64,000 nt of DNA from a virus (IMGVR_UViG_2706796244_000001:9883-73882), one strand, 5' to 3'. Numbered from the stretch's first letter, positions 781 through 29,208 are shown. Notes: a model not told the origin generated them from the sequence alone. Numbers and translations: made by a program.

Positions 781-816
781 GGCCAAACCTCGCAAGAGGT
801 TTGGCCTTTATTTTTT
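781..816 (+). terminator. Rho-independent terminator after RNAP2
   Basis: GGCCAAACCTC-GCAA-GAGGTTTGGCC (11-bp stem) followed by TTTATTTTTT. Confidence 0.9.
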
Positions 817-8888: not shown

Positions 8889-8920
8889 AATGGGCCCCAA
8901 TCCGGGGCCCATTTTTTATT
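8889..8920 (+). terminator. Rho-independent terminator
   Basis: AATGGGCCCC-AATCC-GGGGCCCATT followed by TTTTATT. Confidence 0.85.
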
Positions 8921-10960: not shown

Positions 10961-11181
10961 TGCAGAAGGCAGGCACCCGGTGCCGTCACGATGGCGCCAA
11001 GCTGCGGGTCATTGCTACCGAAACTGGTGATGGCCTGCCGATCATGGTCTACCGCATACGAGAATGTCCCGTATGCAAGGACCGCACCGTAACCGTGGAG
11101 ATCCCCTACAGCGGGGATTTCCCATACTCGAAAGTGAAGGCGCTGGCCGCCTCACGCAGAAAGGATGACGATGAGCAATAG
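10960..11181 (+). CDS. Small zinc-ribbon protein resembling the NrdR N-terminal ribbon
   Basis: C..D...RVI.T........RIRECPVCKDRTVTVE pattern. TGATG coupling. Confidence 0.55.
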   Translation: MQKAGTRCRHDGAKLRVIATETGDGLPIMVYRIRECPVCKDRTVTVEIPYSGDFPYSKVKALAASRRKDDDEQ

Positions 11182-12118
11182 CGAAACCGCCCACAACAAC
11201 ATGAAGCCCTACATGGATCTGCTCCACCAGATCTACTACCAGGGCGAGGGCAAGTCTGACCGCACTGGCACAGGCACCAAGTCCGTATTCGGTGCCCAGA
11301 TGGAATTCGATCTGCGTGAGGGCTTCCCCCTGCTCCAGAAGAAGACCACCCCCTTCACCACGATCTTCACCGAGCTCTCGTGGATGATGCAGGGCCTGAC
11401 CAATGTGAACTGGCTACAGCAAAAGGGCTGCCACATCTGGGACGAATGGGCTGGTCCTGATGGCGGCCTCGGCCCGATCTATGGTGCCCAGTGGCGCAGC
11501 ATCCAAGGCCCCGATGGAAAGAACATCGACCAGCTGGCCAAGGCACAAGAGCTGCTGCTGAACGACCCGGACAGCCGCCGCATCATCGTGAATGCCTGGA
11601 ACGTGGCCGAGCTCGACCAGATGGCCCTGACACCGTGCCATGCGATGTTCCAGTTCTGGACCCGCAAGCTGACGCTCACCGAGCGCATCAACCTGGCGCC
11701 GATCCCCGAATACCAGCGCAATGTCTGGTTCTCGGGCCTGGCCTCGGACACCCTCCATGAGAAGCTGGCGCTGCTGTCCGTGCCGGAGCGTGCCCTGAGC
11801 TGCAAACTCTATCAGCGCAGCGCTGACATGTTCCTGGGCGTGCCCTTCAACATCGCCAGCTACGCGCTGCTGACGCACCTCATGGCGGCCACGGTCGGCA
11901 TGCAGGCCGAGAAGTTCATCTGGTCTGGCGGTGACTGCCACCTGTACTCGAACCACATGGACCAGGCCAAGCAGCTGATGGACCGTCCAACGGTCATCGG
12001 CAACCCGCACCTGTTCGTCATCCGTGCACGCGAGTTCGTGGCCGACTACAAGCGCGAAGACTTCGAGCTCATAGGCTACAAGCCTGCGGGGGTGATCTCC
12101 GCTCCCGTTGCCGTGTAG
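11171..12118 (+). CDS. thyA: Thymidylate synthase (ThyA type, N4 gp30-like)
   Basis: DRTGTG, LGPIYGAQWR, SRRIIVNAWN, ALTPCH, YQRSADMFLGVPFNIASY and GDCHLYSNH motifs. ATG 11171 is better spaced from AAGGA than ATG 11165. Confidence 0.97.
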   Translation: MSNSETAHNNMKPYMDLLHQIYYQGEGKSDRTGTGTKSVFGAQMEFDLREGFPLLQKKTTPFTTIFTELSWMMQGLTNVNWLQQKGCHIWDEWAGPDGGLGPIYGAQWRSIQGPDGKNIDQLAKAQELLLNDPDSRRIIVNAWNVAELDQMALTPCHAMFQFWTRKLTLTERINLAPIPEYQRNVWFSGLASDTLHEKLALLSVPERALSCKLYQRSADMFLGVPFNIASYALLTHLMAATVGMQAEKFIWSGGDCHLYSNHMDQAKQLMDRPTVIGNPHLFVIRAREFVADYKREDFELIGYKPAGVISAPVAV

Positions 12119-12120
12119 CG

Positions 12121-12357
12121 TTTTTGTGGTTGTGGCCCGGTGAGCATCTGAGATGCATCGGGCACTAGGCTGACAACCACCGGCCAGCGTTTGCGAAAGC
12201 AGCGCTGGCCACCTTTCGACAGAGCACTGTCGTGGGAATGCTGGAGCCAAACTCTAGACCTATCCTGTGGCTCGGGAGAAGTCCAAGGGGCCAGTTTCCC
12301 TACGAGAGTGCTCTTTAAAGAGGCAGTACACTAGAGTTTTCTTAGGAGAACTCTATG
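12121..12357 (+). ncRNA. Candidate structured RNA leader / cis-regulatory switch (unnamed)
   Basis: Non-coding gap containing at least five helices, plus two mutually exclusive pairings around the downstream RBS (see findings). Confidence 0.55.
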
Positions 12358-12669
12358 GCTGCACAACGCTCTTCCCGAAAGGCATCCGACGAGGATTTGA
12401 TCCGACTGAACTCCATGGGCCTGTCCCTGGGGACCATCGGGCGAATGCTCGGCGTACACCCAACAACCGTCACCATCCGGCTGCAAAACCTGGGCATCCG
12501 AGTGGCGGACACCCGGCGCACCTTCATGGAAGACGTGCTCGGGACTCTCCCTCCAGCGACATGTGATTGGGTGGCCGATCAACTCGGCCCTCACCACAGC
12601 ATCGCTGATTTCATCCGCAATCTCCTGACCGAAGCCTATGTGCGACGGAACCAGAAAGGAAACCCGTGA
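12355..12669 (+). CDS. HTH DNA-binding protein conserved in N4-like phages
   Basis: GLSLGTIGRMLGVHPTTVTIRL helix-turn-helix and ADTRRTFMED. AGGAG RBS. Confidence 0.8.
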   Translation: MAAQRSSRKASDEDLIRLNSMGLSLGTIGRMLGVHPTTVTIRLQNLGIRVADTRRTFMEDVLGTLPPATCDWVADQLGPHHSIADFIRNLLTEAYVRRNQKGNP

Positions 12670-13073
12670 AAGCTGTCCTTCTCGCCCTCGTGGCTGCACT
12701 GTCCCTGGGCGCCTGCAAAGACGATGCCACCGTGGCGTCGGCCAACCTGTCCAAGGCCGCCGACAACTTCGAGATCAATCGCCGCATCGTCTTCTTCAAC
12801 GGCATCACCGACAGCTACCTGCTGTCGATTGAAGGCCGCTGCTCCTTCGTGGTCGAGTCGGCCCAGAAGGTTGCTGTGACCTGCAAGCTGGGCCGCGATC
12901 AGTACAAGAAGCACACCCTCGGCCTGTCCGACAACGTGAGCTTCTTCAGCGAGCAGCTGGACTCAGCCGACGTGTCGGTCTACCACTACCGCGTCACCTT
13001 CAAGCCGCAGTCCATCATCCGCGATATTGACTTTCGCGGCTCGACCACGGACCTCCCCCGCAACCAACCCTGA
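12666..13073 (+). CDS. Phage lipoprotein
   Basis: Signal peptide with lipobox LGA-C. ADNFEINRRIVFFNGITD is typical of a widespread phage lipoprotein family. Confidence 0.78.
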   Translation: MKAVLLALVAALSLGACKDDATVASANLSKAADNFEINRRIVFFNGITDSYLLSIEGRCSFVVESAQKVAVTCKLGRDQYKKHTLGLSDNVSFFSEQLDSADVSVYHYRVTFKPQSIIRDIDFRGSTTDLPRNQP

Positions 13074-13091
13074 ACCAGAAGGAAACTCTCA

Positions 13092-13685
13092 ATGAGCGAA
13101 GCTCCCATCATCGGTGTCAACTACGCCGAATTCGTCAAGTCCCGTTTCAAGACAGGCATCGCCACTGCCGACGACATTGCCAACAAGGTGGTGCCTTCCC
13201 AGCTGGCTCGTCTGCATGCAGCCATGGGCCTGCTGGGCGAAACCATCGAAGCCTGGTGGAGCGACAGCCGCGAAAACCTCGAAGAGGAACTCGGCGACCT
13301 GGTGTTCTTCCACGAAGCCATGGGCCAGTGCTTGTGGCCGCAATTCCAGCCCGGCGTTGGCCTGGGCACGTTGATCACTCCACCACCTGGTGGTGCCGAA
13401 AGCATCGACGTGTGCTGGTGCAACATGGTCAAGCTGGCCAATGTGATGCACGATCTGTCCAAGAAGGAGACGATCTACGCCAAGGAATTGGACGCAGACC
13501 AGACAGGCACGTATGCCAGCGCCTACAACGCTTTCGCCGTGTACCTGGACCGTCAGATCGGCAACTTCGGCTTCACCCTCCAAGGCCTGCGTGACAGCAA
13601 CATCGCCAAGCTGACCAAGCGCTACAAGACCGGCTACAGCAACAAAGCTGCCGCCGAACGTGCCGACAAGCCGGCTGGCGAATAA
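13092..13685 (+). CDS. MazG-like nucleoside triphosphate pyrophosphohydrolase (N4 gp35-like)
   Basis: LHAAMGLLGETIE...EEELGDLVFF and NIAKLTKRY motifs. Confidence 0.8.
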   Translation: MSEAPIIGVNYAEFVKSRFKTGIATADDIANKVVPSQLARLHAAMGLLGETIEAWWSDSRENLEEELGDLVFFHEAMGQCLWPQFQPGVGLGTLITPPPGGAESIDVCWCNMVKLANVMHDLSKKETIYAKELDADQTGTYASAYNAFAVYLDRQIGNFGFTLQGLRDSNIAKLTKRYKTGYSNKAAAERADKPAGE

Positions 13686-18250: not shown

Positions 18251-18276
18251 GGGGGCAAAGGCATGCCCCCCATTTC
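18251..18276 (+). terminator. Hairpin / weak terminator after DNA polymerase
   Basis: GGGGGCA-aaggca-TGCCCCC followed by ATTTCT. Confidence 0.5.
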
Positions 18277-18296
18277 TGAACCAAGAGGAAAACCCA

Positions 18297-25477: not shown

Positions 25478-25662
25478 TGGATGGCGGGACGATCCTGATA
25501 CTGATCGTCCTGGGCATTGCCGCGTGGATGCTCATCACGCAGGCCATCGTCGTGATCGCCCCCTACATTGCAGGGGGCGTCATCATCCTGGCGGTCGGGG
25601 GGTTCGTGTGGTTTGCCAGCCGAACCCAGCGCAATGAGCAAAACGAAGAAGGCCCCGAATAG
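25477..25662 (+). CDS. Small membrane protein (two TM helices)
   Basis: Hydrophobic 61-aa ORF with TGATG coupling. Confidence 0.7.
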   Translation: MDGGTILILIVLGIAAWMLITQAIVVIAPYIAGGVIILAVGGFVWFASRTQRNEQNEEGPE

Positions 25663-25673
25663 GGGCCTTTTTT
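25649..25673 (+). terminator. Rho-independent terminator
   Basis: AAGGCCCC-GAATA-GGGGCCTT followed by TTTT. Confidence 0.85.
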
Positions 25674-25692
25674 ATGAACCAAGGAGAAAACT

Positions 25693-26902: not shown

Positions 26903-27081
26903 TGGACGGCCTACTCAAGCTCATTGGCATCGTGTGCATAGTTATGTGGATCGCCGGTGAGGTGATCCCAGGCTGGCACTGCCACATCATCTTCGGCGGC
27001 GATGAGTTCGCTGCTGAAGCCCATGAAACCATGGCTCGGGAGATCCGGGCCAAACTGAACCAAGGAGAAAGCAATGAATGA
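26902..27081 (+). CDS. Small membrane protein (59 aa)
   Basis: TGATG coupling. LLKLIGIVCIVMWIAG TM segment. Confidence 0.6.
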   Translation: MDGLLKLIGIVCIVMWIAGEVIPGWHCHIIFGGDEFAAEAHETMAREIRAKLNQGESNE

Positions 27082-29178: not shown

Positions 29179-29208
29179 AAAAAGGCCCCTCAATGAGGGG
29201 CCTTTTTT
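29179..29208. terminator. Bidirectional terminator between the middle (+) and late (-) blocks
   Basis: AAAAAGGCCCCTC-AAT-GAGGGGCCTTTTT at the convergence point. Confidence 0.93.

What the first reader, a model, noticed from the sequence alone, without database searches (positions are those of the whole stretch)
12121..12357. Highly structured 235-nt leader with mutually exclusive RBS-sequestering helices (riboswitch-like) upstream of an HTH gene
Seen in sequence: H1 outer helix GTGGTTGT 12126-33 / ACAACCAC 12173-80, enclosing GCCCGGT/ATCGGGC and GCATC-tga-GATGC. H2 GGCCAGCG..TGC-GAAA-GCA..CGCTGGCC 12182-12210. H3 CGACAG-agca-CTGTCG 12217-32, whose AGAGCACT (12221-28) is also complementary to AGTGCTCT (12307-14), giving a possible pseudoknot or alternative pairing. 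GGGAGA/TTTCCC 12274-12300. The key feature is TAGAGTTTTC-ttag-GAGAACTCTA (12332-12355), which buries the AGGAG SD and the A of the AUG. AAACTCTAG (12249-57) can instead pair with CTAGAGTTT (12331-39) and free the SD. Inference: this anti-anti-SD layout is how translational riboswitches and protein-responsive leaders work. It controls a conserved HTH regulator and sits right after thyA, so autoregulation, nucleotide sensing or a stand-alone ncRNA are all possible. I could not match it to a named family.
Basis: partly seen in the sequence, partly recalled or inferred. Interest (0 to 1): 0.78.

Follow-up and report, generated by a model that had tools for sequence, protein, structure and literature searches.

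The report
Structured RNA leader masking gp35 start

Summary
Eight close relatives and one divergent relative (L043) carry the same spacer. It is more conserved than synonymous sites, and 10-12 base pairs show compensatory changes.

The RNA has four modules:
- D1: a variable hairpin.
- D2: a GNRA-capped hairpin.
- D3: a 111-nt rod, whose tip probably forms an H-type pseudoknot.
- D4: a hairpin that buries the Shine-Dalgarno sequence and the start codon.

The proposed switch is not supported. The "anti-anti-SD" helix is weakened in L043, while the competing D3 pairing of the same bases is compensated. Forcing that helix costs about +20 kcal/mol.

D4 is a local variant of a hairpin, U-run and SD element found upstream of gp35 homologues across Schitoviridae. 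D1-D3 matched no Rfam family and were found only in this small thyA-carrying clade.

My best reading is a plus-strand cis-acting leader that keeps gp35 translation low by default, with D3 as a binding or processing platform. That function is inferred.

The parts
11165..12118 (+). thyA (thymidylate synthase), the upstream gene. The structured spacer was found only in phages that carry thyA at this position.
   Evidence: Pfam Thymidylat_synt E = 1.1e-95. Relatives with thyA upstream carry the spacer. Relatives with rIIB upstream have only a 30-90 nt spacer.
12126..12180 (+). D1: a branched or irregular hairpin just after the thyA stop codon. The hairpin is kept but its sequence is variable.
   Evidence: -26.1 kcal/mol. 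In L036 a different 9-bp hairpin sits at the same place (-19.9). In L043 the outer stem is kept with changed pairs. It has no U-run after it.
12182..12210 (+). D2: a 12-bp GC-rich hairpin capped by a GNRA tetraloop.
   Evidence: -23.0 kcal/mol, z = -5.3. Three pairs have compensatory double changes in L036 or L043, and the loop stays GNRA (GAAA or GAGA) in all seven sequences. It is not followed by a U-run.
12213..12323 (+). D3: a 111-nt rod. About 22 bp of nearly continuous helix (12221-44 with 12291-314) sit on a short basal helix.
   Evidence: -50.3 kcal/mol, z = -4.3. L043 folds independently into the same shape. Compensatory changes occur at columns 124/184, 125/183, 130/179 and 141/174.
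12244..12289 (+). Apex of D3, a probable H-type pseudoknot. Stem 1 is 12244-49 with 12268-73. Stem 2 is 12252-59 with 12281-89. The loops are 2, 8 and 7 nt. This region also holds the most sequence-conserved stretch of D3.
   Evidence: Stem 1 is paired in all 7 sequences, with two double compensatory changes in L043. It is the best-scoring non-nested helix among 56 candidates. The pseudoknot model gives 12 covarying pairs and 96.0% pairing, against 10 and 95.8% for the nested model. Stem 1 duplex energy is -8.7 (window) and -10.8 (L043), against -5.4 and -3.9 for the competing small hairpin.
12324..12362 (+). D4: the hairpin that masks the ribosome-binding site. The core is 12334-41 with 12346-53, the full stem is 12332-41 with 12346-55, and an outer helix reaches codons 2-3. 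The SD is at 12344-48 and the start codon at 12355-57.
   Evidence: -12.8 kcal/mol for the hairpin alone and -22.3 for positions -40 to +20. The 8-bp core is invariant in 7 sequences. D4 is 93% identical to L043, against 54-55% at third codon positions. It aligns with the loop, 3' arm, U-run and SD of the hairpin found upstream of gp35 homologues in other Schitoviridae.
12355..12669 (+). The gp35-like HTH gene whose start region is masked. It is the first gene of the replication module (NTP pyrophosphohydrolase-like, helicase and DNA polymerase genes follow).
   Evidence: 59% identical to N4 gp35, with homologues in 158 GenBank phages, nearly all N4-like. Weak Pfam HTH_38 match. The AlphaFold model has pLDDT 81, and its weak Foldseek matches are nearly all to small HTH or winged-HTH DNA-binding regulators.

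Best explanation
The spacer encodes a plus-strand structured RNA that acts in cis as the leader of the gp35-like HTH gene on transcripts reading through from thyA.

Shown:
- The fold is exceptional for this genome.
- It is conserved beyond neutral expectation.
- It covaries.
- It ends in a stable hairpin that buries the SD and the start codon.

Inferred mechanism:
- The default state is OFF or low. D3 closes co-transcriptionally, so the segment 12331-41 can pair only with the SD region. gp35 is therefore translated poorly from read-through mRNA.
- D1 and D2 are stable hairpins without U-runs. They most likely protect the 3' end of thyA mRNA or mark a processing boundary.
- D3, a rod of about 22 bp capped by a pseudoknot with conserved loops, is most likely a recognition platform. 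The candidate partners are a double-strand-specific RNase (RNase III type) or a phage protein. Its action would set how much gp35, and possibly the downstream replication genes, is made.

D4 is the local version of a regulatory hairpin that precedes gp35 homologues throughout Schitoviridae. The thyA-carrying clade added D1-D3 upstream of it. It is not a two-state riboswitch that uses 12249-57 as an anti-anti-SD.
For: Structure:
- z = -6.4, and rank 1 in the 240-nt, 40-nt-step scan of the window.

Conservation:
- The spacer is 67% identical to L043 (D4 93%), against 54-55% at third codon positions and 63% for thyA overall.

Covariation:
- 10 pairs (nested model) or 12 pairs (pseudoknot model) have changes on both sides, against 2.0-2.2 +/- 1.2-1.3 in shuffles and 0-5 in slid controls. 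Cells paired: 95.8-96.0%.
- Window D3 and L043 D3 fold independently into the same shape.

Strand:
- The plus-strand MFE is 13 kcal/mol lower than the minus strand.
- Five one-sided changes are G.U to G.C or A.U exchanges.
- There are 53 G.U cells against 5 A.C cells.

RBS masking:
- The 8-bp core is invariant.
- The start region is among the least accessible in the genome.
- SD-containing hairpins with different stems also occur in Achromobacter phage JWDelta and Burkholderia phage HN01.
- In most other family members the SD pairs with a pyrimidine stretch 5' of the conserved hairpin.

Family element:
- The hairpin arms covary across 16 phages, including N4.
- The element is single-copy per genome.

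Not coding:
- Relatives carry 1-nt and 2-nt indels inside the only sizeable ORF of the spacer.
Against: - Only two divergent lineages (L043, and L036 for D1/D2) inform the covariation. The shuffle control does not correct for relatedness.
- No transcript ends, cleavage sites or binding partners are known. The roles assigned to D1-D3 are inference.
- D3 is unique in the genome, unlike the repeated RNase III sites of T7.
- The G.U-versus-A.C count is partly circular, because the structure was predicted as plus-strand RNA.
- The D4 changes seen in relatives are uncompensated: an A.C at the outer pair in four sequences and a G.A in L040. Selection there may therefore act on sequence, for example a DNA operator or promoter, as much as on RNA pairing.
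- Palindromes fold equally well as DNA.
Confidence: 0.5

Rival explanations
1. DNA-level element or elements rather than RNA. D2 would be a hairpin promoter for the phage RNA polymerase II, as described for LUZ7 middle promoters. Alternatively or additionally, the D4 palindrome would be an operator for the gp35-like HTH protein (autoregulation), or a cruciform that exposes single-stranded template.
For: - LUZ7 middle promoters are GC-rich hairpins with a stem of at least 6 bp and a 3-4 nt loop, about 15 bp upstream of a G start (PMC9163698). D2 has that shape, and a start 15 nt downstream would fall at the 5' end of D3.
- N4 RNA polymerase II needs single-stranded, AT-rich promoters (PMC4496689).
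- D4 is a near-perfect 10-4-10 palindrome overlapping the start of an HTH gene.
- The family-wide element is conserved in sequence, loop included, far beyond what a stem needs: 41 of 42 bases are identical between phages of Pseudomonas and Achromobacter. It is single-copy.
- D4 changes are uncompensated.
- The minus strand also folds well (z = -5.9).
Against: - The one-sided changes in D1-D3 are of the G.U type, which would be mismatches in DNA hairpins.
- The pseudoknot stem covaries, which has no obvious DNA meaning.
- No other copy of a D2-like hairpin was found in this genome by the covariance model.
- No sigma-70-type promoter was found in 11000-13500.
- LUZ7-type phages did not appear among the gp35 homologues listed, so the LUZ7 promoter rule may not transfer.
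Confidence: 0.2
2. D1-D3 (about 200 nt) is a stand-alone non-coding RNA, made from its own promoter or cut out of the thyA transcript. It would act in trans on a host or phage target. D4 would be a separate, ordinary leader.
For: - D1-D3 form closed, independent domains.
- D3 ends 8 nt before D4 and shares no pairs with it.
- D1-D3 are confined to one clade, whereas D4 is family-wide.
- The conserved apical loops could be a seed or a binding site.
- Small RNAs derived by processing are reported for the N4-like phage LUZ7 (PMC9163698).
Against: - No promoter or intrinsic terminator flanks D1-D3.
- There is no Rfam match.
- No target was sought.
- The module always sits directly upstream of the gp35 leader in all nine sequences.
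Confidence: 0.15
3. One reading: a ligand- or protein-responsive translational switch in which 12249-57 captures 12331-39 and frees the SD.
For: - The two helices share 12331-39, so they are mutually exclusive by geometry. The alternative helix is a perfect 9 bp in the window group.
- Its two arms resemble the two arms of the family-wide hairpin.
- Three of the genome's 13 CTAG sites lie in the spacer, two of them in these arms, despite 20-fold avoidance of CTAG.
- The pseudoknot apex with conserved loops looks like an aptamer.
Against: - The alternative helix is weakened in L043 (-3.9 kcal/mol), while the competing D3 pairs are compensated.
- Forcing it costs +20 to +27 kcal/mol.
- D3 forms first during transcription.
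- It matches none of the Rfam riboswitch classes.
- No ligand is implied by the genes beyond proximity to thyA.
Confidence: 0.1
4. A non-functional scar: leftover flanking sequence of the thyA cassette that happens to be GC-rich and palindromic.
For: - The element occurs only where thyA has replaced rIIB upstream of gp35.
- D1 has been swapped for another hairpin in L036.
- Its oligonucleotide usage is atypical for the genome (CTAG sites).
Against: - It is conserved above synonymous sites.
- It has compensatory changes in D2, D3 and the pseudoknot.
- Its fold is the most extreme in the window.
Confidence: 0.05

Closest known systems
Hairpin upstream of gp35 homologues in Schitoviridae (annotated as 'stem_loop' in G7C and 'putative terminator' in JWDelta)
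   Same: D4 and the 8 nt before it align with the loop, 3' arm, U-rich tract and SD of this element. In both, the gp35 SD is base-paired.
   Different: In most phages a 10-16 bp hairpin lies 30-90 nt after rIIB, and the SD pairs with a stretch 5' of the hairpin. Here the 5' arm is not adjacent, the conserved segment pairs with the SD region itself, and about 200 nt of extra structure precede it. To my knowledge no function has been tested for the family element.
RNase III-processed intercistronic hairpins of phages (T7 R sites, lambda N leader)
   Same: A long irregular double-stranded rod (about 22 bp) sits between genes of a polycistronic phage mRNA, next to a masked ribosome-binding site. 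In those systems cleavage alters translation or stability (from my own knowledge of those systems).
   Different: No cleavage data exist here. There is a single copy in the genome rather than a repeated device. The pseudoknot cap has no counterpart in T7 sites.
T4 gene 32 translational operator (5' pseudoknot plus downstream RBS)
   Same: An H-type pseudoknot lies in the leader of a phage replication-module gene, upstream of its RBS (from my own knowledge).
   Different: The T4 operator uses an unstructured AU-rich tract between the pseudoknot and the RBS, and is bound by the single-strand-binding protein that the gene itself encodes. Here the intervening RNA is folded and the gene encodes an HTH protein.
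Translational riboswitches with SD sequestration (for example the pseudoknot classes preQ1 and SAM-II)
   Same: A conserved folded domain with a pseudoknot lies upstream of a sequestered SD.
   Different: There is no Rfam match at E <= 10. The aptamer-like domain and the SD hairpin share no nucleotides. The only candidate switching helix is not conserved and is energetically far out of reach.
LUZ7 middle-promoter hairpins (PMC9163698)
   Same: D2 is a GC-rich hairpin with a 4-nt loop in the middle-gene region of an N4-like phage.
   Different: The stem is 12 bp. No transcription start is known. D2 varies through G.U-type changes. No gp35 homologue of LUZ7 was among the listed hits.

Membership tests
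Any Rfam family (riboswitches, ribozymes, introns, sRNAs) | Score against the family covariance model | tested here: not met
   cmscan at E <= 10 on 11000-13500 gives nothing inside 12119-12354. The gathering-threshold scan of the whole window gives 0 matches.
Translational riboswitch | Two mutually exclusive, evolutionarily conserved pairings, one of which frees the SD | tested here: not met
   The alternative helix 12249-57 with 12331-39 is not kept in L043. It costs +20 to +27 kcal/mol. The competing D3 pairs covary.
Translational riboswitch | Ligand-binding aptamer | not testable with these tools
   The conserved pseudoknot apex is compatible with an aptamer but does not show one.
Intrinsic (rho-independent) terminator | GC-rich hairpin followed directly by a U-run | tested here: not met
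   D1 and D2 have no U-run. The genome's clear terminators do have one, for example at window 781-806, 8889-8913 and 25649-69. D4's 5' arm is followed by a short U-rich tract, but that tract lies inside the hairpin.
N4-like hairpin promoter (LUZ7 middle type) | GC-rich stem of at least 6 bp and a 3-4 nt loop | tested here: met
   D2 has a 12-bp stem and a GNRA loop.
N4-like hairpin promoter (LUZ7 middle type) | Transcription start (G) about 15 nt downstream | not testable with these tools
   No transcript data are available.
RNase III processing site | About two turns (20 bp or more) of nearly continuous double-stranded RNA | tested here: met
   D3 has 8 + 9 + 5 bp, interrupted only by single-nucleotide loops or a bulge.
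RNase III processing site | Cleavage in vivo or in vitro | not testable with these tools
   This needs an experiment.
tRNA / tmRNA | Cloverleaf detected by ARAGORN | tested here: not met
   0 genes in the whole window.
Schitoviridae gp35 leader hairpin | Position directly upstream of the gp35 homologue, with a conserved loop/3'-arm motif, U-rich tract and SD | tested here: met
   Alignments. The nhmmer hit for L043 is only marginal (E = 0.058 in a tiny database), but there is a contiguous 13-14 nt match to the family consensus.
Schitoviridae gp35 leader hairpin | 5' arm adjacent to the loop, forming a 10-16 bp hairpin | tested here: not met
   In the window the only complementary segment is 73 nt upstream, and it is engaged in D3.
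Protein-coding gene in the spacer | Open frame conserved in relatives | tested here: not met
   The 47-codon frame 12191-12334 is broken by a 1-nt indel in all close relatives and a 2-nt indel in L043.

The most novel reading that the evidence does not exclude
D3, with its pseudoknot apex, is the sensor domain of a new class of phage cis-regulatory RNA. It would bind a metabolite of thymidylate or folate metabolism, or the neighbouring ThyA or gp35-like protein. Through that binding it would gate translation or processing of the leader, and so couple the start of the replication module to the nucleotide supply.
Probability: 0.15. Interest if true: 0.8.

Novelty: new variant of a known kind. 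Interest (0 to 1): 0.5.

Why it matters
gp35 homologues are core genes of N4-like phages with no assigned function, and they open the replication module. Their ribosome-binding site turns out to be structurally masked across the family. One clade has added a 200-nt covarying RNA with a probable pseudoknot. Together these give a concrete handle on how middle-gene expression is tuned after transcription in a phage group whose middle promoters and regulators are still poorly defined.

If D3 binds a protein or a small molecule, it would be a new regulatory RNA class. If it does not, the element is still a clean case of a leader built by adding modules to an older regulatory hairpin.

Tried and rejected
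- Rfam at permissive and gathering thresholds: nothing.
- tRNA/tmRNA search: none.
- Sigma-70 promoter scan: none. The only terminator-like site is a weak one at the thyA stop codon.
- Second copies in the phage's own genome: none.
- Covariance model of D2+D3 against 45 other N4-like loci (about 450 kb): only the known clade members match.
- Conserved-motif patterns in viral contigs and metagenome contigs: nothing.
- The same pattern in 185,579 prokaryote genomes: one match inside a coding region of an Acidobacteriota MAG. The model does not support it, so it is a chance hit.
- Protein-guided searches for more relatives in IMG/VR and JGI metagenomes: only distant phages without the element, or nothing.
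- thyA homologues: nothing above 54% identity outside the phage's own cluster.
- blastn against GenBank phages: no hit in the spacer.
- A search for a shared promoter motif among 30 intergenic regions: only a recurrent RBS-type motif, nothing that includes the spacer's conserved parts.
- Helices considered and rejected as conserved structure: the local hairpin 12217-32, the pairing 12274-79 with 12295-300, and the alternative helix 12249-57 with 12331-39.
- Foldseek on the HTH model: only weak hits.
- The look-up of encoding contigs closed, so the contigs holding P0247, P0246 and P0242 could not be fetched.

Full report
**Context**

The window is bases 9883-73882 of a 73,882-bp IMG/VR virus record with direct terminal repeats. 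Gene order and protein matches place it among N4-like phages (Schitoviridae), but it is divergent. Its helicase is at most 51% identical to any other IMG/VR contig.

The finding lies between thyA (11165-12118; Pfam E = 1e-95) and a 104-aa HTH gene (12355-12669). That gene is 59% identical to N4 gp35 and has homologues in 158 GenBank phages, nearly all N4-like. Downstream come a VG64-like lipoprotein gene, a MazG-like gene, the helicase and the DNA polymerase. In a crude gene map, the 236-nt gap is the longest real intergenic gap in the tightly packed replication region.

**Observation**

- The plus strand folds to -112.7 kcal/mol, against -82.0 +/- 4.8 for shuffles (z = -6.4). The minus strand folds to -99.4 (z = -5.9).
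- In a GC-corrected scan of 240-nt plus-strand windows every 40 nt across the 64 kb, 12121-12360 ranks first.
- Rfam gives no match in the spacer at E <= 10 and none in the whole window at gathering thresholds.
- ARAGORN finds no tRNA, and there is no sigma-70-type promoter.

**Relatives**

HTH homologues from assemblies brought in eight near-identical phages (L036-L042) and one divergent phage (L043; HTH 78% identical in amino acids, thyA 56%). All have thyA upstream, and a spacer of 225-236 nt wherever the contig reaches it.

All other N4-like phages examined have rIIB, or a small ORF, upstream of the HTH gene and a spacer of only 30-90 nt.

- A covariance model of D2+D3 found only the clade members in about 450 kb of N4-like loci.
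- Motif patterns found nothing in viral or metagenome contigs, and one chance hit in prokaryote genomes.
- A second protein-guided metagenome scan found nothing.

**Conservation and structure**

Against L043 the spacer is 67% identical, and the last 28 nt are 93% identical. Third codon positions of the flanking genes are 54-55% identical, and thyA as a whole is 63%.

RNAalifold on seven spacers gives four modules:

| Module | Coordinates | Description |
|---|---|---|
| D1 | 12126-80 | Variable hairpin |
| D2 | 12182-210 | GNRA-capped hairpin |
| D3 | 12213-323 | Rod |
| D4 | core 12334-41 with 12346-53 | SD-masking hairpin |

- On this structure 95.8% of cells are paired.
- Ten pairs changed on both sides, against 2.0 +/- 1.2 in shuffles and 0-5 when partners are slid.
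- D2 keeps a GNRA loop and has three compensated pairs.
- In L036, D1 is replaced by a different hairpin at the same place.
- Window D3 and L043 D3 fold independently into the same shape.
- Five one-sided changes are G.U to G.C or A.U exchanges. G.U cells outnumber A.C cells 53 to 5. Together with the lower plus-strand energy, this points to selection on plus-strand RNA. The G.U count is partly circular, because the structure was predicted as plus-strand RNA.
- The only sizeable ORF in the spacer is broken by indels in the relatives.

**A probable pseudoknot**

I scanned the alignment exhaustively for runs of four or more column pairs that are paired in every sequence. The best helix outside the nested structure is 12244-49 with 12268-73: 6 bp, paired in all seven sequences, with two double compensatory changes in L043.

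Together with 12252-59 paired to 12281-89, which itself has a compensated pair, it makes an H-type pseudoknot with loops of 2, 8 and 7 nt at the tip of D3. Replacing the small apical hairpin with this stem raises the count to 12 covarying pairs and 96.0% pairing. The stem is also more stable than the hairpin it replaces.

The evidence rests on a single divergent sequence, so it is suggestive only.

**The proposed switch**

The helix 12249-57 with 12331-39 is a perfect 9 bp in the window group (-11.1 kcal/mol). In L043 it takes a C.A mismatch (-3.9), while the same bases keep their D3 pairing through a compensatory change.

Enforcing the helix costs +20.4 kcal/mol of ensemble energy in the window and +27.5 in L043. 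D3 is complete before 12331 is transcribed. The local hairpin 12217-32 and the pairing 12274-79 with 12295-300 are also lost in L043. I therefore reject the two-state model as stated.

**The masked start**

The D4 core is invariant in the seven aligned spacers. The partial sequence L040 carries a G.A mismatch in it. The hairpin alone is worth -12.8 kcal/mol, falling to -9.4 and -5.1 in variants with uncompensated changes at its edges. The region from -40 to +20 folds to -22.3.

The start region is the third least accessible of 83 in the genome, and the two below it are doubtful start calls.

**Family context**

Upstream of gp35 homologues in N4, G7C, ECBP1, KP8, Zuri, inbricus, Axy22 and nine metagenomic phages there is a 10-16 bp hairpin. 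Its arms differ between lineages but stay complementary. It is followed by a U-rich tract and the SD.

- The loop and 3' arm are conserved in sequence. A 17-mer is identical in phages of Pseudomonas and Achromobacter, and it is single-copy per genome.
- In most of these phages the SD pairs with a pyrimidine stretch 5' of the hairpin.
- In JWDelta, HN01 and the window clade, the conserved segment pairs with the SD region directly.
- The window's 12324-48 aligns with the loop, 3' arm, U-tract and SD of this element.

D4 is therefore an old, family-wide device, and D1-D3 are a clade-specific addition that came with thyA.

CTAG is avoided 20-fold in this genome (13 observed, 266 expected). Three of the 13 sites lie in the spacer, and the one shared with L043 is in the family motif.

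**Mechanism**

Shown: a conserved, covarying plus-strand fold that ends in a stable RBS-masking hairpin.

Inferred:
- Translation of gp35 from read-through mRNA is low by default.
- D1 and D2 stabilise or delimit the thyA message. They lack the U-runs that the genome's real terminators carry.
- D3 is a recognition platform for an RNase III-type enzyme or a protein.

Rivals are listed with odds in the rival explanations. The strongest is a DNA-level reading, with D2 as a LUZ7-type hairpin promoter and D4 as an operator or cruciform. It draws on PMC9163698 and PMC4496689, on the uncompensated D4 changes, and on the loop-level sequence conservation of the family element.

**Verdict**

This is a real, previously unnamed structured leader with a narrow distribution and an unknown trigger. 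I class it as a new variant of a known kind (a structured translational leader or operator). It is moderately interesting, and more so if D3 proves to bind something.

Noticed in passing
Loci L004, L006, L007, L009, L012, L013, L018, L029, L044, L045, L052, L053, L055-L057, L059, just upstream of the gp35 homologue (for example L059:1090-1143 in N4): A hairpin, U-rich tract and SD element precedes gp35 homologues across Schitoviridae. The arms covary between lineages. The loop and 3' arm are nearly identical across genera, and a 17-mer is identical in phages of Pseudomonas and Achromobacter. The element is single-copy per genome. In most of these phages the SD pairs with a pyrimidine stretch 5' of the hairpin. 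It is annotated only as a stem-loop or putative terminator. It looks like a gene-specific regulatory site (operator, promoter or translational operator).
   Followed up: partly
Whole genome (window plus the 9,882 bases before it): CTAG is 20-fold under-represented (13 observed, 266 expected). TTAA, TATA and CGCG are also depleted, while GATC and CATG are enriched. Three of the 13 CTAG sites lie in the 236-nt spacer (window 12165, 12254, 12331). This suggests restriction or repair avoidance, with local constraint in the spacer.
   Followed up: partly
window 12666-13073 (+): A 135-aa protein with a lipoprotein-type signal and a strong Pfam Phage_VG64 match (E = 3e-52) sits between the HTH and MazG-like genes. 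It is absent from the near-identical relatives (L036-L042), where the HTH gene is followed directly by the MazG-like gene. It is probably a recent insertion, possibly a superinfection-exclusion lipoprotein.
   Followed up: no
window 11165-12118 (+): ThyA is 317 aa, against about 264 aa in bacteria. Outside its own cluster it is at most 54% identical to any of about 8,000 scored homologues. Between the window and L043 it is only 56% identical, although the neighbouring HTH is 78% identical.
   Followed up: no
window 781-806, 8889-8913, 25649-25669, 29179-29207, and 1,386-1,403 bases before the window start: Canonical GC-rich hairpins followed by U-runs sit 20-35 nt upstream of the next gene's start. 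These terminator-then-RBS junctions have the same layout as the family-wide gp35 junction. The one before the window is followed by a second small hairpin that presents the SD in its loop.
   Followed up: no
window 18275-18290, 25673-25690, 27054-27070, and 541 bases before the window start: A recurrent start-region motif of about 16 nt, ending in the SD, precedes four genes. A degenerate copy without a start codon lies inside D3 at 12282-12290.
   Followed up: no
L054:386 (Burkholderia phage vB_BpP_HN01): The gp35 homologue is annotated as starting at L054:440. The family-conserved N-terminus begins at an ATG at L054:386, directly after an SD-containing hairpin, so the deposited start is probably 18 codons too far downstream.
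   Followed up: no
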